Positions 3,046-23,057 are shown, counted from the stretch's first letter. The stretch is 34,313 nucleotides of DNA from an uncultured Candidatus Saccharibacteria bacterium (GCA_964587695.1 CAZPLP010000002.1:1-34313), one strand, 5' to 3'. Program-made: numbers and translations. The notes: generated from the letters alone by a model not told the origin.

Positions 3046-3948
3046 TTATAAATTATTTTTGCTACTTATTATTGTTATCGCCTTTGTAATGATTGGTAAA
3101 ATGTCGTTATAAAAATTAAGATTTTGAATATCTTGCAGCTTGAACCATTTTGCATCATCAAGTCCCCCACTATCACCAAGTTTTAATTCTTTTCTTTCAG
3201 CTTTGGCAAGAAAATATACAACCTGTTTTCTTATTTTCCCTTCTACTGGGTGATTTGCTACGTATTCATTTTTTAAAAGTTCTTCTTCAACTGTGATATC
3301 TATACCTAATTCATCTTTTATTTCTCTTAGTACTCCGACTTTTGGATCTTCATCTGGATTAATCTTTCCTTTAGAAAGAGTCCATTTACCAAAAACATCA
3401 TGAACAAAAGCAAAATAAATATTTCCATCTTCTATACTGTAAACTACCGCTCCGGCAAGTTGTTTTATTGGCATTTTATCAAACGGAATATCAGTATGAA
3501 TTTTTTTTGAATATTCATCTTTCCCTGGCTCTCCAAGTTCCTTATATATAGTACCCAAAACTCCATTTATAAAACCTCCGCTTTTTTCTCCACTATATGC
3601 TTTTGCAAGCTCAATAGCTTCGTTGATTGCAACTTTTGCTGGAACTTCTTTTCTATCAGAGAACAAAAGCTCATAAAGTCCTATACGTAAAATATTCCTA
3701 TCTGCAATAGAAATTTTATCTATTGGCCAGTCTGGTGCTGCTTTAACAATAATACTATCTAAATCTGCTTTTTTATCGATAACTCCTTTTAAAAGTGCCT
3801 CGGAAAATGATTTTTCGGAATTACCCTCGCCAAATTCTGCATTGTTTCTTTCGAGTGATGCTACCGCATCTTCTCTCGAAGAATTGCGAAAATCCCACTC
3901 AAAGGCGGATTGAAATACTATTGATCTTGCAAGGTGCCTACTAGACAT
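3046..3948 (-). CDS. nusB: NusB antitermination factor fused to a C-terminal Nudix hydrolase domain
   Basis: The N-terminal ~140 aa are NusB-like (RNILRIGLYELLF...PAKVAINEAIELAK...FINGVLG). The C-terminal half carries a Nudix box, GKINPDEDPKVGVLREIKDELGI (GX5EX7REUXEEXGU). Confidence 0.8.
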   Translation of the reverse strand: MSSRHLARSIVFQSAFEWDFRNSSREDAVASLERNNAEFGEGNSEKSFSEALLKGVIDKKADLDSIIVKAAPDWPIDKISIADRNILRIGLYELLFSDRKEVPAKVAINEAIELAKAYSGEKSGGFINGVLGTIYKELGEPGKDEYSKKIHTDIPFDKMPIKQLAGAVVYSIEDGNIYFAFVHDVFGKWTLSKGKINPDEDPKVGVLREIKDELGIDITVEEELLKNEYVANHPVEGKIRKQVVYFLAKAERKELKLGDSGGLDDAKWFKLQDIQNLNFYNDILPIITKAITIISSKNNL

Positions 3949-5030: not shown

Positions 5031-7574
5031 ATGGCAAAATTTATTCATTTACATACTCATTCCCACTATTCTTTGCTCAATGCACTGCCTCAATTAAAAG
5101 AACTTATTAAAACAGTGAAGGATTTGGGCATGACATCTATAGCACTTACAGATGCTGGAAATATGTATGGGACTATTGAATTTTATCAAGATTGTAAAAA
5201 TAACGGGATAAAACCAATAATTGGAGTAGATTTTTACGTCGCCTCACGAACACGAAATGATAAACAGGGAGGAATAGATAATCGTAGAACCCGTTTAGTA
5301 CTCTTGGCAAAAAATGAAATTGGTTATAAAAATCTTATAAAACTTGTCACAGATTCATTTTTTGAGGGATTTTATTACAAGCCAAGGATAGACCATGAAC
5401 TTATAGAGAAATATTCTGAGGGGCTCGTTTGTATTATACCCCATTTTTCTGGAGAAACTTCGTACTCATTAAAAAACGGCGATACAGAAAAAGCTATAAA
5501 TGTTATAGCTTGGTATAAGAAAATCTTTAAAAATGATTTTTTTATAGAAATAACACATCATCCAGAAATAGAAGGACAAATTGAGCTTAAAGAAAAAATA
5601 ATAGAATTAGCAAAGGAAACCAAAACACCTCTTGTAGCAGCACATGATGTTTATTATTTACATCCGGAGGATAAAGCAGCTCGCGACACTCTTGTTCAAG
5701 TAAATTCTCATTCAGATTTTATAGATCGTGAACAAAAAGACAGCATTGATGATTTTTCTCTTATCTCATCAGAGACAGCAGAGCAATATTTCAAAGACAC
5801 ACCAGAAGCATTGGAAAACACTATAAAAATTGCTGAAATGTGTAATGTTGAAATTACACTTGGAAAAGATGCTTGGGTTTTTCCTGAATATTTTGTAGAA
5901 AGTGGTTTATCACATGATGAAGAATTAAAAAGGCTTGCATATCTTGGGATAGCAAAAAGAAATCTTACACATTCAAAAGAAGTAATAGACAGAATTGAAT
6001 ATGAACTTAAAATTATTAAAGATAAAAAATATTCAAAGTATTTTTTAGTTGTATCTGATCTTTTGCGCTTTGCTACTGAAAATGGAATTTATTCAAACAT
6101 AAGAGGTTCTGTTGCGGGATCTATTGTTACCTATCTTACTGGTATTACAAAAGTAAATCCGCTTGAATATAAACTTCCTTTTGAAAGATTTTTAAATCCG
6201 GAAAGACCTTCTGCCCCTGATATCGACATGGACTTTGCCGATAATCGAAGAGATGATGTTATAAATTATACTAAACAAAAATACGGAAAAGAAAACGTCG
6301 CACAAATCGGAACTTTTGGCACCATGATGGCTCGTGGTGCTTGTCGTGATGTTGCAAGAGCAATGGGTTATCCACTTCCTCTTGCAGACAAAATTGCCAA
6401 ACTTATTCCAATGGGTGCACAAGGAAAACCCATGACTCTAAAAAAAGCACTTAGGGATGTATCCGAACTCAAAGACATGTATGACAATAGTAAAGATACG
6501 AAAACAATTATAGATATGGCACAAAAAATAGAAGGTTGTGCAAGACACATTTCGGTTCATGCCGCTGGAGTTGTTATTGCTCCTTCACCTCTTATAAACT
6601 ATGTTCCGCTACAATATGATACGAAAGGTGAAAATAAAATCATTACTCAATATGATATGGATTCTGTTGGAGAAGATGGCGTTGGACTTTTAAAATTTGA
6701 TTTTCTTGGAATTAAAAATCTTTCAATTCTTGCTGAAGCTGTTCGTCGCGTAAAAGCTATCGAAAATATTGATATAGATATCGAGGCAATTCCACTAGAT
6801 GATAAACTCACTTATGAACTTTTAACAAAAGGAGAAACAACTGGACTTTTTCAACTAAACGGCCAGGGGATGACTAAATCTTTAAAAGAATTAAAACCAA
6901 CAAATGTTCACGATATAAATGTTATGGTCGCACTTTATAGGCCCGGACCAATGGACAACATACAAGAATATATTGCAAGAAAGCATGGTCTTAAAAAAAC
7001 TTCTTACCTCCACCCAAAAATGAAAGACTTTCTTGATACAACTTTTGGAGTACTTGTTTATCAGGATGATCTCTTAATGACTGCTATAGAAGTTGCTGGA
7101 TATACTTGGGGTGAAGTTGATAAATTTAGAAAAGCTATTGGAAAAAAGATACCGGAGGAAATGGCAAAGCAACATGTAAAATTCGTTGAGGGTTGTATTA
7201 AACATGGAGGTATGACAAGTAGTAAAGCAGAATCACTATGGAATTTGTTTGAACCATTTCAAGGTTATGGTTTCAATAAGGCACATGCAGCAAGTTATGG
7301 ACGCGTCGCATATCAAACTGCATATATGAAAGCAAACTTTCCTGCTATTTATATGTCTGCCGTTCTTACTGCAGATTCCGGAGACGTAGAAAAAATTGGT
7401 GAATTTATGGCCGATTGTAAAAAAATGGGAATTCCAGTTTTGCCTCCGTCTGTTAATGAAAGTTACAGAGATTTCACGACTGTTAAAACTCCAGGTGCAG
7501 ATGTACATTCAGCTGGAATTGATCGCGACAAAATCCGGTTTGGACTTACAACAATAAAAAACTTTGGCGAATAG
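5031..7574 (+). CDS. dnaE: DNA polymerase III alpha subunit, PHP plus polymerase core; ends at an in-frame TAG
   Basis: PHP motif HLHTHSHYSLL, PDIDMDF, and the palm/fingers blocks (GLLKFDFLG, YRPGPM, FNKAHAASY). The frame stops at TAG 7572..7574 in the middle of the conserved IKNFGE-x-IxxxIIEER region. Confidence 0.85.
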   Translation: MAKFIHLHTHSHYSLLNALPQLKELIKTVKDLGMTSIALTDAGNMYGTIEFYQDCKNNGIKPIIGVDFYVASRTRNDKQGGIDNRRTRLVLLAKNEIGYKNLIKLVTDSFFEGFYYKPRIDHELIEKYSEGLVCIIPHFSGETSYSLKNGDTEKAINVIAWYKKIFKNDFFIEITHHPEIEGQIELKEKIIELAKETKTPLVAAHDVYYLHPEDKAARDTLVQVNSHSDFIDREQKDSIDDFSLISSETAEQYFKDTPEALENTIKIAEMCNVEITLGKDAWVFPEYFVESGLSHDEELKRLAYLGIAKRNLTHSKEVIDRIEYELKIIKDKKYSKYFLVVSDLLRFATENGIYSNIRGSVAGSIVTYLTGITKVNPLEYKLPFERFLNPERPSAPDIDMDFADNRRDDVINYTKQKYGKENVAQIGTFGTMMARGACRDVARAMGYPLPLADKIAKLIPMGAQGKPMTLKKALRDVSELKDMYDNSKDTKTIIDMAQKIEGCARHISVHAAGVVIAPSPLINYVPLQYDTKGENKIITQYDMDSVGEDGVGLLKFDFLGIKNLSILAEAVRRVKAIENIDIDIEAIPLDDKLTYELLTKGETTGLFQLNGQGMTKSLKELKPTNVHDINVMVALYRPGPMDNIQEYIARKHGLKKTSYLHPKMKDFLDTTFGVLVYQDDLLMTAIEVAGYTWGEVDKFRKAIGKKIPEEMAKQHVKFVEGCIKHGGMTSSKAESLWNLFEPFQGYGFNKAHAASYGRVAYQTAYMKANFPAIYMSAVLTADSGDVEKIGEFMADCKKMGIPVLPPSVNESYRDFTTVKTPGADVHSAGIDRDKIRFGLTTIKNFGE

Positions 7575-8303
7575 ATTTCTAGAGTAATAATTGAAGAAAG
7601 AAAGAAAAATGGAAAGTTTACTTCCCTTTCAAATTTTCTTGAGAGAATTATGGACAGAAATTTAAACAAAAGATCTCTTGAGCCTCTTATTAAAACTGGT
7701 GCACTAGATGAGTTTGGTGATCGTGGTGTCATGCTCGCAAATTCTGAAAATCTTTTAAAATTTAATAAGGAGCTCAGTAAAAAAGATCAAAATCAAGATT
7801 CACTTTTCGGAATCTTTGATGGTGTATCTGCAGATACAGGAAAAATACAAGAAGCTTTCACACTTGAGCCAGCACCAAATGCAACAATGAAAGATAAACT
7901 CAACTGGGAAAAAGAATTGCTCGGAGTATATATTTCTGGACATCCTTTGGATAAATACAGAAATGCTTTGGATAAACAAAAAATAAGCATACAAAGAATT
8001 AAAAATTTACCAAATACTGAATCAGCCGAAGCAGAAGCAATAAAATCACAAATTGATGCTGGTCAACCAATCGGCGGAATCATCGAGGAGGTTCGAGAAA
8101 TAATGACTAAAAATAACGAGCCAATGGCATTTATAAAGCTTGCCGATTTTACTGGCTCAATAGATGCCGTAGTCTTTCCAAAAACTTATGCACAAATGAA
8201 AGATTCTATTAAACCCGACAAATGTATTGCAGCTATTTGTAAAGTTTCAGAAAGAAACGGAGAAATGAGCTTGATTATTGAGAGGTTGAAAGTACTAGAG
8301 TAA
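7575..8303 (+). CDS. dnaE: DNA polymerase III alpha, C-terminal continuation (HhH plus OB fold), in the same frame as 5031..7574; first ATG at 7650
   Basis: The codons directly after the TAG read ISRVIIEERKKNGKFTSLSNFLERIMDRNLNKRSLEPLIKTGALDEFG, which is the canonical DnaE segment following IKGVGE. Confidence 0.7.
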   Translation: MSRVIIEERKKNGKFTSLSNFLERIMDRNLNKRSLEPLIKTGALDEFGDRGVMLANSENLLKFNKELSKKDQNQDSLFGIFDGVSADTGKIQEAFTLEPAPNATMKDKLNWEKELLGVYISGHPLDKYRNALDKQKISIQRIKNLPNTESAEAEAIKSQIDAGQPIGGIIEEVREIMTKNNEPMAFIKLADFTGSIDAVVFPKTYAQMKDSIKPDKCIAAICKVSERNGEMSLIIERLKVLE

Positions 8304-8424: not shown

Positions 8425-8826
8425 CTATAGGAAAGATTTTAATTTCTCTTTTATCTCTAATACTCTCTGATATTCTAATTCATATAATTTTCTTTTTAAT
8501 CTTTTAACACTTATCAATTTCATTTGTGCCAGTATAGCTGAAACTTCTTTATTATTTACATCAGTATAATTAAAATAAAAATCAATTTTTTTCTGTTTTG
8601 TAGATAAAGGAATCGCCCAAAACATTTTGTTGTTAAACTTTTTAATTACTAAAATTGGCCTGGAATAATTATCCCCGCTTCCATTCTGTTCAAAACCGAT
8701 ATTTTCACCAAGATTACTCATCCAAACTTCTCCTTCTTTGGGAAATTTATCTGGTTCATCGACAGAAGAATCTATTATCTTTTTTAAATTATTCCATTTA
8801 TCAAAATCTTTTTGCATGATAAACAT
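8425..8826 (-). CDS. MazF/PemK-fold toxin-like protein
   Basis: GEVWMSNLGENIGFEQNGSGDNYSRPILVIKK, AIPLSTKQKK and SAILAQMKLISVKRL align block by block with E. coli MazF (GDLIWVDFDPTKGSEQAGHRPAVVLS, CVPCTTQSKG, ALADQVKSIAWRAR). The track start at 8853 is a TTG overlapping the RT. The ATG at 8826 (MFIMQKDFDKW) or at 8817 is more likely. Confidence 0.75.
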   Translation of the reverse strand: MFIMQKDFDKWNNLKKIIDSSVDEPDKFPKEGEVWMSNLGENIGFEQNGSGDNYSRPILVIKKFNNKMFWAIPLSTKQKKIDFYFNYTDVNNKEVSAILAQMKLISVKRLKRKLYELEYQRVLEIKEKLKSFL

Positions 8827-8845
8827 TCTATCATCTACATACCCA

Positions 8846-9838
8846 CTATCCAAGTAAATTTAAAATTTTATTTTTCAATTTAATCGCATTTCCATGACTC
8901 AACATTCCCAAATACGATTGCACGGTTTCCTCTTTATCACTCTCCTTTAATTTCCTAAACATCTTTCTTTTTGTCGCTGTTCGCAATACTCTATGTTTTG
9001 GAAAATGCACCCAGCCGAGAATATCAACTCCCGAAGCCAGCGTTTTGAGAAATAGTTTATTCGGATGCAATGTTAATTTAAGTTTAATACAAAGAAAATC
9101 ACTAATTTTTAATATTGCATTCTCAAGCCAAGCTTTATCCTGTGAAAGAAAAACGAAATCATCAGCATATCTAATATAATATTTTGCTTTCAATTTATGT
9201 TTTACAAATTGGTCAAATTCATTCATATAAATATTTACCAAAAGCTGAGATGTAAGATTTCCAAGAGGCAAACCCTTTCCTTTTTCAGTAGAATAAAAAC
9301 TTTGTATGATTTCGGTTAAAACAGACATTATATCTTTATCATATATATAATTATTTAATATTTTCAAAAGAATTTCTTGGTCTATTGAAGCAAAAAACTT
9401 TCTAATGTCGCACTTTAAAACCCAAACTGTTTTTGTATTATTTTTAGATACTTTATTTGAAAAATATCTGAATCTATCCATCGCTTTATGTGTCCCCTTT
9501 CCAACCCTGCAAGAATACGAATCGGCAATAAATGTTTTATCAAAAAATGGATACAGTTTTCTGTATAAAGCATGGTGTAATAGTCTGTCTCTCACTTTTG
9601 CCTTATGTATATTTCTTGGCTTTGGGTCAGAAATATTAAATGCTTCATATAAAGAATGTTTATAGGTTTTATTTTTTAATTCCGTGTGAAGTGAAATAAT
9701 ATTGCTCATCAAATGCCTTTGAAACTCCTCTACATCTTTGCGATCTTTTTTACCTACAACAAATTCTCTCCACGCTTCTAGCAGATTTTCCATTTCAATG
9801 ATATCTTGATAATTATTATTAAATTGAATTTTGGACAT
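8846..9838 (-). CDS. DGR-type reverse transcriptase
   Basis: YADD catalytic box (9158..9169), the SYSCRVGKGTHKA block and the LPLGNLTSQLLVNIY (xGxxxSQ) motif. Its 330-aa size fits DGR RTs. It is adjacent to the TR/VR pair. Confidence 0.9.
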   Translation of the reverse strand: MSKIQFNNNYQDIIEMENLLEAWREFVVGKKDRKDVEEFQRHLMSNIISLHTELKNKTYKHSLYEAFNISDPKPRNIHKAKVRDRLLHHALYRKLYPFFDKTFIADSYSCRVGKGTHKAMDRFRYFSNKVSKNNTKTVWVLKCDIRKFFASIDQEILLKILNNYIYDKDIMSVLTEIIQSFYSTEKGKGLPLGNLTSQLLVNIYMNEFDQFVKHKLKAKYYIRYADDFVFLSQDKAWLENAILKISDFLCIKLKLTLHPNKLFLKTLASGVDILGWVHFPKHRVLRTATKRKMFRKLKESDKEETVQSYLGMLSHGNAIKLKNKILNLLG

Positions 9839-9859
9839 AATTATTACAACATAAAATAT

Positions 9860-10256
9860 ATGACTTTGATGCCCCCCCCCCGAAAAGAAACTGCTACCAC
9901 TACTACAAAAAGTAAAAACTGCTTATATTCTTTGGTATGAATATTATCAGATTTTGCCAAAACCCCACAGATATTCTCTAGGTAATAGAATTGATACTTT
10001 GTTTATAGAAATAATAGAAGCGATTTCTGTTGCAAGTTTCCTTCCCAAAGAAGAAAAGCGTTCTTATATTTCCATTGCCATCAGAAAACTTGATACACTA
10101 AAAATCTTGATGATGGTTTTGTGGGAAACAAAATCTTTAGATAATAAAAAGTATATTGCTCTATCACTCCAAACAGACGATATTGGAAAAATGCTCGGAG
10201 GTTGGAATGGACAGATATTAAAACAAAACTCTCCCGCAAAAGCAGGAGAGAAATGA
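9860..10256 (+). CDS. avd: Avd-like accessory variability determinant (four-helix bundle), with the frame interrupted at a C10 tract
   Basis: ATG 9860 (or 9869), then C10, then the remaining 125 codons (124 sense codons plus TGA) in a different frame. One fewer C gives MTLMPPPEKKLLPLLQKVKTAYILWYEYYQILPKPHRYSLGNRID...IGKMLGGWNGQILKQNSPAKAGEK (131 aa). The C-terminus resembles Bordetella phage bAvd GRILGSWIARVNRKGQAGK. As assembled, only a TTG at 9954 opens the frame. Confidence 0.75.
9872..9881. repeat. Homopolymeric C10 tract
   Basis: Ten consecutive C read directly from the sequence, in an otherwise AT-rich region, immediately after ATG 9869..9871. Confidence 0.95.
10215..10250 (-). terminator. 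Hairpin plus U-run immediately downstream of the TR on the minus strand, antisense to the avd 3' end
   Basis: The minus strand reads ctctcc-t-gc tttt gc-g-ggagag (10250..10229), followed by ttttgtttt. Confidence 0.45.
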
Positions 10257-10261
10257 TGTGA

Positions 10262-10398
10262 TTTGCGAGCGAAAAAGAAGCGATTGTTGTCATTCCACTT
10301 GTTGTCGTCGTTCCCATTGTTGTTGTTCAACCACGAATCCGAATCGTTCCTGTTACAGTTGAAAAGCTTGAGGTTGCCATCACGGTCGCGTATTGTTT
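10262..10398 (-). repeat. DGR template repeat (TR)
   Basis: 137 nt homologous to 10750..10886. In the VR frame it reads TIRDRDGNLKLFNCNRNDSDSWLNNNNGNDDNKWNDNNRFFFARK, rich in AAY codons and preceded by an in-frame TAA. Confidence 0.9.
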
Positions 10399-10746
10399 AG
10401 AATCCTTCCTTACCACCACCCATTGAATGCACCACAAGGGTACTTCATTTTTCTAGCACGGAATACCGTGAAGAAAAATTGGTCGCTCTCAAGGTTGTAT
10501 CGAATTTGATATATTAAATATCCTAGATTCTAAACCAAGTAACTTCATTTTTTGAAGGACTACATATAACACTCTATTCAAAATCTTAATCGTGAATAAT
10601 CTCGATATATGGATACTAATTTCGGTAGCAAAAAATCGTAATCGTTTGCATAGTCACCTACTCTCAACAATATTTTAGCACGAATTAAGTATTAAGGAAT
10701 AAGAAAATAAGGGCTAGATTTAAGAATCTAAATTATAAGTTCTAAT

Positions 10747-12687
10747 TTACTTGCGAGCGAAAAAGAAGCGATAGTTGTCATTCCACATGTGGCCGTCGTT
10801 CCCACGGCTGCTGTACAACCACGAAGCCGAATCGTTCCTGTCACAGCTGAAAAGCTTGAGGTAGCCAAAACGGTCGCGTATAGCTTCCATTGCAATATTT
10901 GTCCAATTACCACTTTTTTCATAATTTAAACGGATTGTTGGAGCAAGTTTAGCTGGAACAAGTTCAAAATTATTTTCTTTTGCCTTTTCTTTAATATCTG
11001 CATAAGTATGAACTTCTGTATCACCAAAAAGTTCACCAACTGAAATAGATACAATTTCATAGGAATTATTTAGTTTTTCTTTCCAGTCAACTTTAGTCAA
11101 CATATCTTTTGAATAATCACTAATTTTATAACCCTCTTCTTCAAGTTTTTTAATTGCTATTTTATCAGAAGTGATTTCTTTATCAGGAATAATTTCTTTC
11201 AAAAAAACTTTTTGTTCTGGAAATTTGGAATAAATGTGTTCAATATTTTTTGGTAAAGATTTTAGAACTTTTGGATTGAATTCTCCAATGTATGCTTTAG
11301 TATTTTTATTTATTTCTTTCTCAGAATAAGCGATTTGATTTGGTTCACATTCAATTACAACAGGGGCATCTTCTTTGGGATTTCTTTGTGAAATGATTTC
11401 TTCAATTCTCGGATCTCTTTGATAACCGAAACCTTCTATTTTAGAATCTATTTCATATATGAACTTGAGCTCGTCTTTTGTTAGTTCTGGTTTTAGATAT
11501 ATTTTTTCTTTAGTTTCTTTGTCTTCTTTAAAGCTTTTCTTGTAAATAGCAGTCATGTCTTTCATATCTTTCGATATCTTCTGATATTTCTCTTTTCCCG
11601 GAAGTTCACTCATCTTCTTTTCAGCAATTTCTGTCATATTTCCTTCGAGATTTTGTTGATTATCTGCAACACCTCTTGTTTCGCCAATCTGATCTCCTTG
11701 CATACGAATAGCGATTCTTGGAATAGAAGGTTTGTTTTGTTTGTCCAATGTATAGTAAACATAGAAGTCTCCCCCTTTAAGATGAGTTTCTGCCGTGCCA
11801 TAACCTTTTGTACACCAAGCTACACCTTTATTTTGTAAAGATGACCATAGAGCTGTTGGGTCTGTTCCTTTCCCGTATTTAATCCATTTACCTTCTGTGA
11901 TTTCTCTCATCTCTGGGGTAATTTCTCCAGATTGTCTTATTGCTTCAGAATATTGTTTGGCAAAAGAAATCTTAGCGAAGTTTGCTACTTTTTCTTTAGT
12001 GAGCAATTCATTTTTAGGAATATCTCCATTTGCAGATTCTTGTTGAGCTTCTTGAAGATTTTTGAGCATCTCTGCATCTTTGTCGGCTTCAATCATTTGT
12101 TCAATATATGCGAGAGCTCCTCTGTCTATATCGGGAAATAGTTTTATGCTTCCTTCCGATCTTTTTGTGAATTCACCTTTATCTTTGTCATAATCTCCTA
12201 AATCTAAAACATTTCTGAAAGCATAATAACGAAACCACACAGGATATGGTTCGTTTGCATCAGAAAGATATGAAATCCAATTGTCTAGGGATTTTTCCAA
12301 ATCGGTGACTGCGATATCTCCCCTTTGATCCATTTGTTCTTCCTCATAGCGTGCTTCAATACCCATATCCCTAGCGGCTCTTTCTTCAACTCTTCTTGCA
12401 CCTTCGGCCAGGGCTTCTTTATTTCCTCGGACATATTTGTTCATGACCATTTCCCTGAGCAAAGACAAAGCTCGTGGACGAGTTTCTGACCCGTGAGTTT
12501 TCTTTGGTTGTTCTTTATTTGGATCTAGAACTAGCTTTTCTAGACGATCTAAATAATTTTTTATTTTAGCTTCTGGATCATTAGGCACTTTCTCGCCTGT
12601 GCGTTCTTCTGTACGCTCGGCTGATGCTTCCACTTCTGGAGCATTGTGTAGGTCGTATTTCTTTTTGAGGAAGTCGAAGTTTTCCAT
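10747..12687 (-). CDS. DGR target protein (646 aa) with a C-terminal variable, C-type-lectin-like end (...RFFFARK)
   Basis: Long ATG-initiated ORF whose 3' end is the VR. The N-terminus is hydrophilic, with no signal peptide or TM segment visible. The N-terminal ~570 aa are not recognised. Confidence 0.85.
   Translation of the reverse strand: MENFDFLKKKYDLHNAPEVEASAERTEERTGEKVPNDPEAKIKNYLDRLEKLVLDPNKEQPKKTHGSETRPRALSLLREMVMNKYVRGNKEALAEGARRVEERAARDMGIEARYEEEQMDQRGDIAVTDLEKSLDNWISYLSDANEPYPVWFRYYAFRNVLDLGDYDKDKGEFTKRSEGSIKLFPDIDRGALAYIEQMIEADKDAEMLKNLQEAQQESANGDIPKNELLTKEKVANFAKISFAKQYSEAIRQSGEITPEMREITEGKWIKYGKGTDPTALWSSLQNKGVAWCTKGYGTAETHLKGGDFYVYYTLDKQNKPSIPRIAIRMQGDQIGETRGVADNQQNLEGNMTEIAEKKMSELPGKEKYQKISKDMKDMTAIYKKSFKEDKETKEKIYLKPELTKDELKFIYEIDSKIEGFGYQRDPRIEEIISQRNPKEDAPVVIECEPNQIAYSEKEINKNTKAYIGEFNPKVLKSLPKNIEHIYSKFPEQKVFLKEIIPDKEITSDKIAIKKLEEEGYKISDYSKDMLTKVDWKEKLNNSYEIVSISVGELFGDTEVHTYADIKEKAKENNFELVPAKLAPTIRLNYEKSGNWTNIAMEAIRDRFGYLKLFSCDRNDSASWLYSSRGNDGHMWNDNYRFFFARK
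10750..10886 (-). repeat. DGR variable repeat (VR), the last 46 codons of the target gene
   Basis: It differs from the TR at 18 positions. Of these, 17 are sites where the TR has A on the coding strand. Confidence 0.9.
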
Positions 12688-20687: not shown

Positions 20688-23057
20688 CTAGCGTACTTGC
20701 CAACCTTTATTAGCATTCATTTTATTTGTAATTTTTTCCATAACCGCATTAACTTCTTCATCAGAAAGAGTTTTTTCATAAGACTGAAATATGATTCTGT
20801 AAGCATACGAAGTTTTCTTTGAACCATCTTCAAAAGATTTGGTAAAAACATCAAAAAGTCTATTTTTTAACATAAGTTTCCCGACCTCTTTTTCTATAAT
20901 AGAAAACACTTTTTCAGATTTTGTGCCTTCCGGTGTAAATACAGCAATATCACGTATCATAAATGGGTATTGGGAAATCTTTTTATATCTTTTATTAGCA
21001 TCGCCAATTTCTTTAAAATCATATTCTGTTACTTCGGGTAATTTTTCAAGTATTTTTTTAAAATTGAACTCTGCAATATTCTCTATTTTTGTAGAAGTTT
21101 TGATTGAAACTAGGTCAATATTAAATTTTTCTGAAAGATTTTTTACTATAGCGTCTAGTACCTCATTTTCCTTTGGTTTTTTCAAACCCAATGGGTTTTT
21201 AATACCGATTACAAAATTACTTTCTTCACCACTATTTTTAAAAACGTGTCCAAATTCAAATATTTTTATTTGTAGCATATCTACAAGCTCAGAATACCTA
21301 GAGTTAAATTCTAAGCAATTATTTAAGCCATCGCTAAGATTTGTTCGCAAAAATTTTCTCTCTGGAGACATCGGATTAGCAAGTTCTATTTCCCCTTTAT
21401 CTGTAAATGAATAATTTATTACTTCAGAAAAACCTTTTTCATAAAGAATTCTTCGAATTTTTTCTTTGTAAGCAAAACCCTTTTCTATTTTTACTTTTTC
21501 TTTATTTTTAGAAATAGAAATGTCTTTTATTTTATCGTAGCCATATATTCTACCTATTTCTTCAGCCAAATCTTCTTTGATTCTCAAATCCAATCTTTCA
21601 TCTGGTACTGTGATAACAAATCTTTCTAAATTTTCTGTCATCCTTCTATAACCGACTATGTTTTTGAATCTTTCACTTTTATCTAAATCTTCAATAACCA
21701 CTTTATCAAAAAGCATAGTTGCATGTATCACTTTTCCATTACCTAAATACAAACCACAGTGATCTACACCTTCTGGAACATTGGTACCAGGCAAAAATTC
21801 TAAAGTATTATAAAAAATTTTACCTACTCCTGCATTAGCATAAATGGTATCACCAGGAATCAAATCTCCTTTATTGATTTTTTTACCAAACACATATTGA
21901 TCAACAGACATTCTAGGGATTTGAATTCCAGCCTGAACAAAAAGATAACTTACAAAACCAGAGCAGTCAAAAGATTTGGGCGCATCATATGAAATACTTG
22001 CAGCACGTTTATACGGAACCCCAATAAGTGTTTGTGCAATTTTTAATACTTCATCAATTGGTTTTACTTTCTTCCATTCAAATCCAAATTTATCAAAAAT
22101 TTTCTCAATGTCTGAATCTTTTATTTCAACGCCTATAATAGAACTTGCTTCTTTTGAAGAAATCCCTAGTATAAATTTATTAGCTCTTTTTGGATAATTA
22201 TCTACTATTTCTCCAACTTTTGTCAGTGATGTCCCGGCAATTTCTACAATAAGTTTACTAAGTATATCCATTGCTTCACCTGCAACTTCCACTGAAAAAT
22301 CATTTTCATATCTTTTTGATGCATCGGTCTGGATTTTCAATCTTTGAGAAGTTTTCCTTATTTGTACTGCATCAAAACTCGCTGATTCAAGAATGATATT
22401 TTTTGTACTTGTTTCAAGCTCAGCAAAATTTCCTCCTTTTATTCCGGCGATTGCTAGTGGATTTTCACCGTCCGTAATAAGTAAAACATTTTCATCAAGC
22501 TCAACATCTTTTTTGTCTAAAGTAATTATCCTTTGCCCTCTATATGCGTTTTTTACTACAATTTCATTACCAATTTTATCTGAATCAAAAGCATGCATTG
22601 GCTGACCAATTTCAAGCATTACAAAATTTGTGGCATCAACAATATTATTTATTGATCTTTGTCCAAGTGTTTCAAGTTTAATCTTCAACCATTTAGGCGA
22701 GGGACCAACTTTAATATTTTCTACAACTCTACCAATATATCTCCTACAGAGTTTTGGATCTTCAATTTTTACCTCAAGCTTTTTTAAAGTGTCAGAAACT
22801 TTTATATCTTTAAACTTCCTGGAATACAAATTGACTTTTAAGTTTGCCACAACTCCAATTTCTCGAGCTATACCTCTATGACAAAGACAACTGTGATTCA
22901 AGTTCGGTGTAGTTTTTGCATCCATCACAATATCCCCCCCAACTTTTTCTAGTCCTTCCACCTCCATTGAATGCATGGTTAATAGGTCTCCAGTTTTTTC
23001 TGCTGCTGGAGCCTTACCATTCAAATATTCATTTAACCAATTGTAAGAAACTTTCAT
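20688..23057 (-). CDS. pheT: Phenylalanyl-tRNA synthetase beta subunit with an inserted NlpC/P60 domain
   Basis: B3/4 domain (PLAIAGIKGG), B5 (VPDERLDLRIKEDLAEEIGRIYGYDKI) and a C-terminal FDX-ACB-like end. Residues ~331-478 carry NlpC/P60 motifs (GVPYKR, FDCSGFV, PGD, HCGLYLGNGKVIHA). Confidence 0.9.
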   Translation of the reverse strand: MKVSYNWLNEYLNGKAPAAEKTGDLLTMHSMEVEGLEKVGGDIVMDAKTTPNLNHSCLCHRGIAREIGVVANLKVNLYSRKFKDIKVSDTLKKLEVKIEDPKLCRRYIGRVVENIKVGPSPKWLKIKLETLGQRSINNIVDATNFVMLEIGQPMHAFDSDKIGNEIVVKNAYRGQRIITLDKKDVELDENVLLITDGENPLAIAGIKGGNFAELETSTKNIILESASFDAVQIRKTSQRLKIQTDASKRYENDFSVEVAGEAMDILSKLIVEIAGTSLTKVGEIVDNYPKRANKFILGISSKEASSIIGVEIKDSDIEKIFDKFGFEWKKVKPIDEVLKIAQTLIGVPYKRAASISYDAPKSFDCSGFVSYLFVQAGIQIPRMSVDQYVFGKKINKGDLIPGDTIYANAGVGKIFYNTLEFLPGTNVPEGVDHCGLYLGNGKVIHATMLFDKVVIEDLDKSERFKNIVGYRRMTENLERFVITVPDERLDLRIKEDLAEEIGRIYGYDKIKDISISKNKEKVKIEKGFAYKEKIRRILYEKGFSEVINYSFTDKGEIELANPMSPERKFLRTNLSDGLNNCLEFNSRYSELVDMLQIKIFEFGHVFKNSGEESNFVIGIKNPLGLKKPKENEVLDAIVKNLSEKFNIDLVSIKTSTKIENIAEFNFKKILEKLPEVTEYDFKEIGDANKRYKKISQYPFMIRDIAVFTPEGTKSEKVFSIIEKEVGKLMLKNRLFDVFTKSFEDGSKKTSYAYRIIFQSYEKTLSDEEVNAVMEKITNKMNANKGWQVR

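What the first reader, a model, noticed from the sequence alone, without database searches (positions are those of the whole stretch)
8425..12687. Complete diversity-generating retroelement between dnaE and thrS
Three components are visible. (i) ORF 8846..9838(-) is a reverse transcriptase with YADD (9158..9169), SYSCRVGKGTH and LGNLTSQ, blocks I know as typical of DGR RTs. (ii) The ORF ending at 10256(+) is an Avd-like four-helix-bundle protein. (iii) A 137-nt repeat pair consists of the TR at 10262..10398 and the VR at 10750..10886, where the VR is the last 46 codons of ORF 10747..12687. By hand alignment (constant offset of 488) the pair differs at 18 positions. Of these, 17 are sites where the TR has A on the minus (coding) strand, out of about 45 TR adenines. 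Only one (10381 vs 10869, G to T) falls on one of the ~92 non-adenine sites. In frame the TR reads TIRDRDGNLKLFNCNRNDSDSWLNNNNGNDDNKWNDNNRFFFARK. The VR reads AIRDRFGYLKLFSCDRNDSASWLYSSRGNDGHMWNDNYRFFFARK. AAY-rich template codons plus adenine-only divergence are the signature of mutagenic retrohoming. The neighbours are core genes and no integrase or virion genes are present, so the element looks chromosomal.
Basis: partly seen in the sequence, partly recalled or inferred. Interest (0 to 1): 0.85.

Follow-up and report, generated by a model that had tools for sequence, protein, structure and literature searches.

The report
Patescibacterial DGR with unusual RNA and switch
This is a real, chromosomal diversity-generating retroelement of the type already known to be common in Candidate Phyla Radiation bacteria; following it up showed that its whole clade also has a conserved structured RNA in front of the template and a slippery repeat tract at the start of its accessory gene, neither of which I could find described.

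Summary
TR 10262..10398 and VR 10750..10886 (minus strand) differ at 18 of 137 positions, 17 of them at TR adenines (p=1.8e-8). The RT's best solved relative is the Bordetella phage DGR RT. The + strand ORF is an Avd. VR is the last 46 codons of a 646-aa protein. Neighbours are housekeeping genes. The inverted avd is the known 'B3' architecture of CPR DGRs, so the element is a new member of a known kind.

Eighty related loci added three things.
1. The ~350-nt VR-TR gap encodes a conserved structured RNA leader: 42 of 49 pairs covary and there is no Rfam match. It has its own -10-like element, a 12-bp helix exactly at the TR 5' boundary, a covarying duplex across the TR 3' end, and a terminator hairpin inside antisense avd. 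This looks like a circular permutation of the phage DGR RNA.
2. A C/G homopolymer (C10 here, 9872..9881), or another repeat with a unit not divisible by three, sits between avd and RT in about 70 loci. In this window it puts the only ATG out of frame with full-length Avd. One natural 9/10 polymorphism toggles that frame.
3. Closely related target proteins differ almost only in VR, so the family diversifies in nature.

The parts
10747..12687 (-). Target gene: 646-aa protein with no Pfam or PDB sequence match. It belongs to a family of ~640-aa Patescibacteria proteins with more than 1,600 members.
   Evidence: AlphaFold model with mean pLDDT 83.8.
10750..10886 (-). Variable repeat (VR): the last 46 codons of the target, lying in a confidently modelled C-terminal beta-alpha-alpha-beta4 domain.
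   Evidence: C-terminal model pLDDT 94.7. The top Foldseek hits are C-type lectins but are not significant.
10715..10730 (-). Small hairpin (6-bp stem, 4-nt loop CTTA) about 20 nt after the target stop codon. It is a possible counterpart of the post-VR hairpin/cruciform of other DGRs.
   Evidence: Similar 4-nt-loop hairpins occur in many related loci. In the window it is weak (-2.7 kcal/mol).
10672..10680 (-). Conserved extended -10-like element (TGCTAAAAT) preceded by a T-run. This is the inferred promoter of the DGR RNA.
   Evidence: Conserved TGnTAnnAT block 6-7 nt upstream of the conserved RNA 5' block in alignment A1. The consensus scanner, which needs a -35 match, did not call it.
10399..10666 (-). 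Structured leader of the DGR RNA (helices H1-H6 plus conserved single-stranded blocks). It has a window-specific ~55-nt insertion in the H6 loop (~10427..10486).
   Evidence: RNAalifold: 49 pairs, 42 with compensatory changes. 93.6% of cells are paired against 37-47% when slid, and 0 of 500 shuffles reach the observed values. No Rfam match even at E<=1. Coordinates.
10536..10554 (-). Leader 'A-block' (CAAAAAATGAAGTTACTTG). It pairs with the sequence just 3' of TR (10251..10259) and with the TR-terminal CAA. This is the proposed primer-strand analogue.
   Evidence: 636 of 732 cells paired (87%) against 41-56% at shifted registers; 0 of 2000 locus-shuffles reach this; several covarying pairs.
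10524..10535 (-). H4 5' strand. It pairs with 10395..10405, a 12-bp helix whose 3' strand ends at the TR 5' boundary. This is the proposed analogue of the cPRT Stop duplex.
   Evidence: 10 of 12 pairs covary and 96% of cells are paired. TR/VR identity jumps from ~0.2 to 0.7-0.9 within 1-3 nt after the last H4 nucleotide in 61 loci.
10262..10398 (-). Template repeat (TR): 47 adenines and 13 AAY codons, with a theoretical repertoire of ~1e23 peptides.
10219..10250 (-). 9-bp stem with a UUUU tetraloop plus a UUUUGUUUU run, lying antisense inside the last codons of avd. It is read as an intrinsic terminator of the DGR RNA and as the counterpart of the Avd-binding stem-loop.
   Evidence: It is the only terminator-like site in 9750..10950. 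The same module is present in all ~60 loci with variable loops and covarying stems. It matches the element described in 10.1101/2023.10.23.563531.
9873..10256 (+). avd (accessory variability determinant), full-length frame. The mechanical ORF starts only at TTG 9954.
   Evidence: With the N-terminal extension the DivGenRetAVD match covers profile positions 1-102 of 104 (E=8e-17, 61 bits, below the cut-off of 80). The truncated ORF matches positions 21-102 only.
9860..9881 (+). Two ATGs (9860, 9869) followed by a C10 tract (9872..9881). Both ATGs are in frame +1 relative to Avd; C9 or C12 would restore MPPPEKK...Avd. This is the simple-sequence-repeat site of the clade.
   Evidence: C10 is identical in three independent assemblies. 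G/C runs of 7 or more: 62 in 6.3 kb of avd-RT intergenic DNA against 8 in 757 kb elsewhere.
8846..9838 (-). DGR reverse transcriptase, 330 aa, with YADD and LGNLTSQ motifs.

Best explanation
**What it is.** This is a chromosomal diversity-generating retroelement of the CPR 'B3' type in a Patescibacteria genome.

**Shown**
- A DGR-clade RT (8846..9838, minus strand).
- A divergently oriented Avd gene (about 9873..10256, plus strand).
- A 137-nt TR (10262..10398, minus strand).
- A VR forming the last 46 codons of a 646-aa protein of unknown function, differing from TR almost only at TR adenines.

**Inferred mechanism**
1. A discrete RNA of about 450 nt is transcribed from its own -10-like element (~10672..10680). 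It ends at a hairpin plus U-run (10219..10250) that lies antisense within avd.
2. Its ~265-nt structured leader clamps both ends of TR. Helix H4 abuts the TR 5' end and marks where cDNA, and hence TR/VR homology, stops.
3. The adjacent leader strand pairs with the TR 3' end and the 9 nt that follow. This places the start site for self-primed, adenine-mutagenic reverse transcription by RT-Avd.
4. The cDNA then replaces VR. About 25 codons can be randomised, giving roughly 1e23 variants on a C-type-lectin-like surface.

**Further inference**
A hypermutable repeat (C10 here) between the upstream ATG and the Avd frame makes production of full-length Avd, and so diversification, switchable. In this strain the switch reads 'off'.
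For: **Adenine bias.** 17 of 18 mismatches are at TR adenines, p=1.8e-8.

**Proteins.** The RT's best PDB hit is bRT 8ub7, E=3.9e-42 over the full length; the motifs are confirmed. Avd profile hits.

**Clade-wide pattern.** The same layout recurs in about 60 of 80 related loci from different species, with A-only TR/VR mismatches such as 15/15, 22/22 and 23/23. B3 architecture is reported for 90% of CPR DGRs (PMC5758913).

**Activity in nature.** In clusters of near-identical target homologues, variation concentrates in VR: 31 of 32 variable columns in one cluster.

**RNA.**
- Covariation supports the leader.
- The leader/post-TR duplex is supported.
- The TR/VR homology boundary falls at the H4 edge.
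- The terminator hairpin is conserved.
- The topology parallels the BPP-1 RNP.

**Switch.**
- A repeat sits at the same site in about 70 loci.
- An ATG reads openly through it in all 77 loci that have one, with frames scattered 17/35/25.
- A 9-versus-10 polymorphism is the only difference across 3.9 kb between contigs, and it toggles the Avd frame.
Against: **On current activity at this locus.**
- No read data were available, so ongoing activity here is untested.
- The one other assembly of the same strain that covers VR (L081) has an identical VR. C10 is identical in both other assemblies.

**On family membership.**
- Avd scores are below the curated cut-offs (61 vs 80 bits; 34.5 vs 40).
- No canonical start is in frame for full-length Avd.
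- The C-type lectin fold is only suggested (Foldseek E 0.18-0.8, TM 0.32-0.38).
- One mismatch (10381, G to T) is not at an adenine.

**On the RNA.**
- The window RNA's own folding energy is unremarkable (z = -1.1).
- The promoter was not called by the consensus scanner.

**On the switch.**
- Only one tract-length polymorphism was found. Another set of 7 contigs showed none.
- More distant B3 relatives lack the tract.
- The tract could act on promoters rather than on translation: in 20 of the 24 loci where the tract lies 13 nt from the RT ATG, a TAnnnT hexamer abuts the poly-G and ends 7 nt before that ATG.
Confidence: 0.93

Rival explanations
1. It is a decayed or permanently silent DGR remnant: the parts are recognisable but no longer diversify the target.
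For: The full-length Avd frame has no in-frame start. VR is identical in the one other assembly that covers it, L081. There is one non-adenine mismatch. Some homologous populations are static (clusters 3 and 6).
Against: The RT ORF is intact with its catalytic motifs. TR, all leader helices and the terminator hairpin are intact. VR is in frame with no stops, and 15 of 16 changed codons are non-synonymous. The out-of-frame state is one slippage step from 'on', and about three quarters of related loci from other species are in the same state, which is not expected of independent decay.
Confidence: 0.15
2. The repeat tract is not a translational switch on avd. It acts instead as a variable spacer within overlapping divergent promoters, tuning transcription of RT and/or avd, in the manner of the poly-C tracts in Bordetella fim promoters (recalled from general knowledge, not checked in the literature here).
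For: In 24 loci the poly-G lies exactly 13 nt from the RT ATG. In 20 of these a TAnnnT hexamer abuts the tract and ends 7 nt before the ATG, as expected for a -10 element of a leaderless mRNA. The intergenic region is only 30-110 nt for two divergent genes.
Against: The spacing is not uniform: 33 nt in the window, and a different arrangement in the P0114 loci. Every locus with a tract has an upstream ATG whose frame is open through it, and the natural 9/10 variant toggles that frame. All non-homopolymer repeats have units of 2, 4 or 7 nt. The two roles are not exclusive.
Confidence: 0.3
3. The G/C tract is a structural or recombination element (a G-rich RNA/DNA structure, polymerase barrier or module junction) with no switching role, or its length differences are assembly noise.
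For: All replacement repeats are G/T-rich on the RT strand. One contig (L095) changes from identical to ~25% divergent exactly at the tract. Homopolymers are error-prone in assemblies.
Against: The common property of the replacements is repetitiveness, not sequence: (CA)n, (CCAG)n, (CCAA)n, (CGAA)n and two heptamers. C10 was reproduced in three assemblies. The ~900-fold enrichment at one site in 70 species cannot be noise.
Confidence: 0.15
4. The RT belongs to a retron, group II intron or defence RT, and the TR/VR pair is an ordinary diverged duplication.
For: The best NCBIfam hit is the group II intron RT model (139 bits, far below its cut-off of 300), with weaker hits to Drt and retron models.
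Against: The bRT match is 22 orders of magnitude better than the group II match in PDB. An Avd lies next to the RT. The adenine-only pattern has p=1.8e-8 and is repeated in about 60 loci. No intron RNA domains or retron msr/msd were found by Rfam.
Confidence: 0.01

Closest known systems
CPR/DPANN diversity-generating retroelements (Paul et al. 2017, not readable here; 'B3 architecture' of Wu et al. 2018, PMC5758913)
   Same: Host group, the order target/VR - TR - avd - RT, an Avd-type accessory gene, and a target that is a hypothetical protein without known domains. [quoted passage not shown] I take the inverted avd seen here to be that B3 layout.
   Different: Nothing differs at the level of architecture; this element is a member. 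The features added here are not mentioned in the accessible papers: the ~225-265-nt covarying leader, the H4 boundary helix, the terminator inside antisense avd, and the repeat tract.
Bordetella phage BPP-1 DGR and its RT-Avd-RNA particle (PDB 8ub7 series; bioRxiv 10.1101/2023.10.23.563531)
   Same: RT homology (E=3.9e-42). Adenine mutagenesis. An Avd-binding-type stem-loop just 3' of TR. One continuous RNA strand that pairs with both the TR 3' end and the segment immediately 5' of TR, so that TR is looped out. A ~11-12-bp duplex at the point where cDNA synthesis stops.
   Different: In BPP-1 that continuous strand and the RT-binding elements lie 3' of TR, in the spacer before brt. Here they lie 5' of TR, and only ~45 nt follow TR before a terminator. 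avd is on the other strand. There is no match to Rfam RT-10, the BPP-1 spacer motif. The target is cellular, not a phage tail fibre.
Simple-sequence-repeat contingency loci. Examples recalled from general knowledge, not checked in the papers read here: Neisseria and Haemophilus phase-variable genes, Bordetella fim promoter poly-C, Campylobacter poly-G tracts.
   Same: A G/C homopolymer of 7-14, or a 2-, 4- or 7-nt repeat, in the 5' coding or promoter region. Frame states are scattered among strains. A one-unit length polymorphism occurs between otherwise identical sequences.
   Different: The controlled gene is a component of a mutagenesis machine rather than a surface antigen or restriction-modification gene. 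The host is a Patescibacterium. Switching itself has not been observed experimentally.

Membership tests
Diversity-generating retroelement | Reverse transcriptase of the DGR clade, with motif 4 [I/L]GxxxSQ, YxDD, and closest relatives that are DGR RTs | tested here: met
   LGNLTSQ and YADD are present. The best PDB hit is bRT 8ub7, E=3.9e-42 over residues 8-312, against 1.4e-19 for group II RTs. No formal phylogeny was built.
Diversity-generating retroelement | TR/VR near-repeat whose differences fall at TR adenines | tested here: met
   17 of 18 mismatches are at adenines, p=1.8e-8.
Diversity-generating retroelement | VR in frame at the 3' end of a target ORF, with TR adenines at codon positions 1-2 (AAY codons) | tested here: met
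   VR is the last 46 codons. 43 of 47 adenines are at positions 1 or 2. There are 13 AAY codons, and 15 of 16 changed codons are non-synonymous.
Diversity-generating retroelement | Accessory variability determinant (Avd) | tested here: met
   DivGenRetAVD E=8e-17 over profile positions 1-102 of 104; Pfam bAvd E=3e-8. Both are below the curated cut-offs, and the full-length frame lacks an in-frame start.
Diversity-generating retroelement | IMH/IMH*-type 3' boundary and a hairpin downstream of VR | tested here: inconclusive
   The last 22 nt are identical and the terminal CGCAA adenines are never changed in any locus. TR and VR diverge immediately afterwards. The window hairpin is weak (6 bp, -2.7 kcal/mol).
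Diversity-generating retroelement | Variable residues displayed on a C-type lectin (or Ig) fold | tested here: inconclusive
   The C-terminal model is confident (pLDDT 94.7). C-type lectins rank first in three Foldseek searches, but with E 0.18-0.8 and TM 0.32-0.38.
Diversity-generating retroelement | Ongoing VR diversification within populations | not testable with these tools
   No reads are available. The one other assembly that covers VR (L081) has the same VR. For the family, clusters of near-identical homologues vary almost only in VR.
BPP-1-type DGR RNA (Rfam RT-10; RNP of 10.1101/2023.10.23.563531) | Structured spacer 3' of TR matching the RT-10 model | tested here: not met
   No Rfam hit at E<=1 in 9700..10900. 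Only ~45 nt follow TR before the U-run.
BPP-1-type DGR RNA (Rfam RT-10; RNP of 10.1101/2023.10.23.563531) | Avd-binding stem-loop just 3' of TR, a duplex at the TR 5' boundary, and a duplex across the TR 3' end formed by one continuous strand | tested here: met
   The stem-loop is present in all loci. H4 covaries and coincides with the homology boundary. The A-block duplex covaries. Function is inferred by analogy only, and the strand order is permuted.
SSR-mediated phase-variable (contingency) locus | Repeat tract in the 5' coding or promoter region, with a unit not a multiple of 3, conserved in position but variable in length | tested here: met
   C5-C14 tracts in 65 loci; (CA)n, three tetranucleotide and two heptanucleotide repeats in 7 others. 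Roughly 900-fold enrichment at this site.
SSR-mediated phase-variable (contingency) locus | Length polymorphism within a strain that changes expression | tested here: inconclusive
   One case was found: 9 versus 10 as the sole difference across 3.9 kb, toggling the Avd frame. No variation was seen in three window-strain assemblies or in 7 P0105 contigs. Expression cannot be tested here.

The most novel reading that the evidence does not exclude
In this Patescibacteria DGR clade the template RNA is a free-standing ~450-nt ncRNA that is a circular permutation of the Bordetella phage DGR RNA, with the primer and stop strand and the protein-binding elements moved from 3' to 5' of TR. In addition, the diversity generator is itself under stochastic on/off control by a hypermutable repeat at the 5' end of avd, which overlaps the RT start. 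In other words, a contingency locus gates a hypermutation machine.
Probability: 0.45. Interest if true: 0.75.

Novelty: new member of a known kind. Interest (0 to 1): 0.55.

Why it matters
The DGR itself adds one more example to a large known class, so on its own it matters little.

The follow-up gives DGR biology two testable handles.

1. It provides a covariation-supported RNA architecture for the most abundant but least studied DGR group (CPR, B3 type). This architecture predicts where cDNA synthesis starts and stops. It also suggests that the RNP geometry seen in the phage system is conserved through a permuted RNA.

2. It offers a candidate answer to how cells restrain a costly mutagenic element. 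A slippery tract leaves most lineages 'off', one step away from 'on'.

It also flags a ~640-aa, apparently cytoplasmic Patescibacteria protein family as a major DGR target of unknown function.

Tried and rejected
- **Alternative genetic code.** I considered this as an explanation for the split dnaE and the truncated avd. It is rejected: the dnaE stop is TAG, TAG also ends other genes, and another assembly has GAG at that codon.
- **Rfam.** Scans at gathering threshold and at E<=1 found nothing in the element.
- **Target protein by sequence.** Pfam, NCBIfam and a PDB sequence-profile search found nothing. The PcfJ-like domain mentioned for some CPR targets was not detected.
- **Target protein by fold.** Full-length and C-terminal fold searches gave only sub-significant C-type lectin hits.
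- **Single-sequence folding.** The window RNA gave no thermodynamic signal.
- **Promoter scan.** The consensus scan did not call the conserved -10-like element.
- **Closely related cassette pairs.** The search failed because the genome collection holds one genome per species.
- **Metagenome scan.** The scan for tract-length variants of the P0114 junction returned a single contig.
- **Literature.** Paul et al. 2017 could not be read. A 2026 preprint on coevolutionary ncRNA mining that mentions DGRs was not held.
- **Internal TTG as the Avd start.** I considered the TTG after the tract and set it aside, because it is TTA in several loci and CTA in the window.

Full report
**1. Observation**

The repeat finder recovered a 136-nt direct repeat at 10263-10398 / 10751-10886, offset 488, 88% identity. 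An exact comparison over 10262..10398 against 10750..10886 on the minus strand gives 18 mismatches. Seventeen lie on the 47 TR adenines and one lies on a G (10381). The probability that at least 17 of 18 randomly placed differences hit adenines is 1.8e-8.

Homology ends abruptly on both sides. In frame, 15 of 16 changed codons are non-synonymous. TR adenines sit at codon positions 1 and 2 (43 of 47). There are 13 AAY codons. Forty-two adenines in 25 codons allow roughly 1e23 peptides. No other VR copy exists in the window.

**2. Proteins**

- **RT.** ORF 8846..9838(-) is an RVT_1 protein. Its best solved relative is the Bordetella phage DGR RT (8ub7 series, E=3.9e-42, full length), far ahead of group II intron RTs at 1.4e-19.
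- **Avd.** The + strand ORF ending at 10256 hits Pfam bAvd and NCBIfam DivGenRetAVD. The mechanical ORF from TTG 9954 covers only profile positions 21-102. Extending the frame upstream to about 9873 restores positions 1-102 (E=8e-17). That stretch contains no ATG, GTG or TTG in frame.
- **Target.** The 646-aa target has no Pfam, NCBIfam or PDB sequence relative. It has more than 1,600 homologues of ~640 aa in Patescibacteria, all annotated as hypothetical.
- **Target fold.** An AlphaFold model is confident (pLDDT 83.8), and the C-terminal 147 residues modelled alone reach 94.7. C-type lectins rank first in three fold searches but below significance. I therefore call the variable domain lectin-like and unproven.

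**3. Context**

All other genes tested are housekeeping: RNase III, NusB-NUDIX, RNase HII, DnaE, ThrRS, sortase, GyrB, PheS/PheT, EF-Ts, S2, a release factor and aldolase. RT relatives are abundant in Patescibacteria genomes (more than 568 confirmed stretches) and rare in viral contigs (9). The element is chromosomal.

**4. Architecture across relatives**

In 80 loci from different species (RT 64-83% identical), avd always lies on the strand opposite to RT, immediately upstream. In about 60 loci a TR ends 5-40 nt from the avd stop, and a VR lies 390-560 nt upstream. Mismatches are almost exclusively at TR adenines.

Wu et al. describe sub-types of architecture B that differ in avd/TR order and orientation, and state that B3 accounts for 90% of CPR DGRs. 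The layout is therefore known, and this element is a member of that group.

**5. A structured leader RNA**

The VR-TR gap is conserved in length and, over its 3' ~230 nt, in sequence.

- RNAalifold predicts 49 pairs, 42 with compensatory double changes.
- On that structure 93.6% of cells pair, against 37-47% when partners are slid. The covariation score is 0.69 against 0.28 in shuffles, and 0 of 500 shuffles reach the observed values.
- The block starts 6-7 nt after a conserved T-run plus TGnTAnnAT element (window TGCTAAAAT, 10680..10672). I read this as an extended -10 promoter, although the consensus scanner did not call it.
- Rfam has no match, even at E<=1. That includes RT-10, the BPP-1 spacer motif.
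- The window RNA on its own folds no better than shuffles (z = -1.1). The evidence is therefore comparative.

**6. Both ends of TR are clamped by the leader**

- **3' of TR.** Every locus has CAAC-TC-TCTTCATTT, then a GC-rich stem-loop, then TTTTGTTTT. In the window this is the only terminator-like site (stem 10250..10229). It lies antisense in the last avd codons.
- **Leader to post-TR duplex.** The TCTTCATTT segment and the TR-terminal CAA pair with the leader block AAATGAAGA-TAC-TTG. Here 87% of cells pair, against 41-56% at shifted registers. No locus-shuffle out of 2000 reaches this, and several positions covary.
- **H4.** Immediately 3' of that leader block begins H4, a 12-bp helix in which 10 pairs covary. 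Its other strand ends at the TR 5' edge.
- **Homology boundary.** Across 61 loci, TR/VR identity is at background through the last H4 nucleotide and rises to 0.7-0.9 within 1-3 nt.

In the BPP-1 particle one continuous spacer strand forms the template:primer duplex with the TR 3' end. After 2 nt it forms an 11-bp 'cPRT Stop' duplex with the segment 5' of TR, where cDNA synthesis ends. An Avd-binding stem-loop directly follows TR. The topology here is the same, but the continuous strand is 5' of TR. I therefore propose a circularly permuted DGR RNA. This is an inference. The cited preprint surveyed only 40 nt upstream and 100 nt downstream of TR in other DGRs.

**7. A repeat tract between avd and RT**

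- **In the window.** ATGs at 9860 and 9869 are followed by C10 (9872..9881) and are one base out of frame with Avd.
- **Across relatives.** A C-run of 5-14 (mode 10) occupies the same place in 65 related loci. Seven others carry (CA)n, (CCAG)n, (CCAA)n, (CGAA)n or heptamer repeats there.
- **Enrichment.** G/C runs of 7 or more occur 62 times in 6.3 kb of this intergenic DNA, against 8 times in 757 kb elsewhere.
- **Not an artefact.** C10 is reproduced in two other assemblies of the same strain.
- **Frames.** All 77 loci with a tract have an upstream ATG open through it. Its frame relative to Avd is 0, +1 or +2 in 17, 35 and 25 loci.
- **Natural toggle.** Among contigs carrying an identical target homologue, four are identical over 3.9 kb except for tract length 9 versus 10, and only 9 joins the ATG to full-length Avd.
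- **Alternative reading.** In 24 loci the tract lies exactly 13 nt from the RT ATG. In 20 of these a TAnnnT hexamer abuts the tract and ends 7 nt before the ATG, so a promoter-spacing role is a live alternative.
- **Limits.** More distant B3 relatives lack the tract. I found no paper linking DGRs with repeat-mediated switching.

**8. Activity**

Reads were not available. The one other assembly of this strain that covers VR (L081) has the same VR, and both other assemblies have C10.

In the wider target family, clusters of at least 90% identical proteins differ almost only in the last 60 residues: 31 of 32 variable columns in one cluster and 23 of 60 in another. Two clusters are static. Diversification thus happens in nature in this family, intermittently. 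That fits a switchable element but does not prove one.

**9. Verdict**

The element is a new member of the known CPR B3-type DGRs. The permuted leader RNA and the repeat-gated avd/RT junction are, as far as the accessible literature and Rfam show, undescribed. They raise the interest above that of a routine DGR call.

Noticed in passing
window 7572..7574: dnaE is interrupted by an in-frame TAG inside its HhH domain (ORFs 5031..7574 and 7650..8303 are in the same frame). Another assembly of the same strain (L081, ENA ERZ4201038) has GAG at this codon. The TAG is therefore a single-base variant or an error, not recoding.
   Followed up: yes
window 8425..8853 (-): A 142-aa PemK/MazF-like toxin ORF (Pfam E=2e-8) overlaps the RT stop by 8 nt, with no antitoxin-like gene upstream. 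It is present in the two other assemblies of this strain but next to the RT in none of the 80 related loci. It is therefore a strain-specific neighbour rather than a DGR part.
   Followed up: partly
L095:6249 onward, compared with L092/L093/L096: This is a mosaic contig. It is identical to its relatives through target, leader, TR, avd and the G10 tract, then ~25% divergent from the RT start onward, with a different downstream gene. This is either a recombination joint at the tract, implying that the target-TR-avd and RT modules can be exchanged, or an assembly artefact.
   Followed up: partly
L097-L104 (P0112) and L112-L114 (P0055): Full-length homologues of the target protein (58-59% identical) occur without any adjacent DGR. 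In one case the gene lies between fusA and tuf, next to the S10 ribosomal operon. The ~640-aa family is therefore a widespread, apparently cytoplasmic Patescibacteria protein that is a DGR target only in some lineages, or a remote target.
   Followed up: partly
window 20688..23057 (-): The PheRS beta chain carries an NlpC/P60 peptidase domain (residues 359-471, E=4.5e-16) inserted between its B3_4 and B5 domains. This is an odd fusion or insertion in a core translation gene.
   Followed up: no
window 3046..3948 (-): NusB is fused to a C-terminal NUDIX hydrolase domain in one 300-aa ORF.
   Followed up: no
related loci, the 20-80 nt after each VR stop codon (e.g. L029:5077-5150); window 10680..10746: The DNA just downstream of VR is rich in short CTT(N)G / CTTAG / CTTTG repeats, often forming nested hairpins with 4-nt loops. 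In many loci a GC-rich terminator follows, just before the DGR RNA promoter. This may be a recognition or cruciform region for retrohoming.
   Followed up: no
L007:3404, L007:5253, L065:9068: Additional G9-G10 runs lie outside the main avd-RT junction in loci that also carry a second TR/VR pair (L007) or a second VR (L065). This suggests further cassettes with the same tract.
   Followed up: no
window 22934..22940: This is the only other G/C run of 6 or more in the 34-kb window (C7), inside the PheRS beta gene.
   Followed up: no
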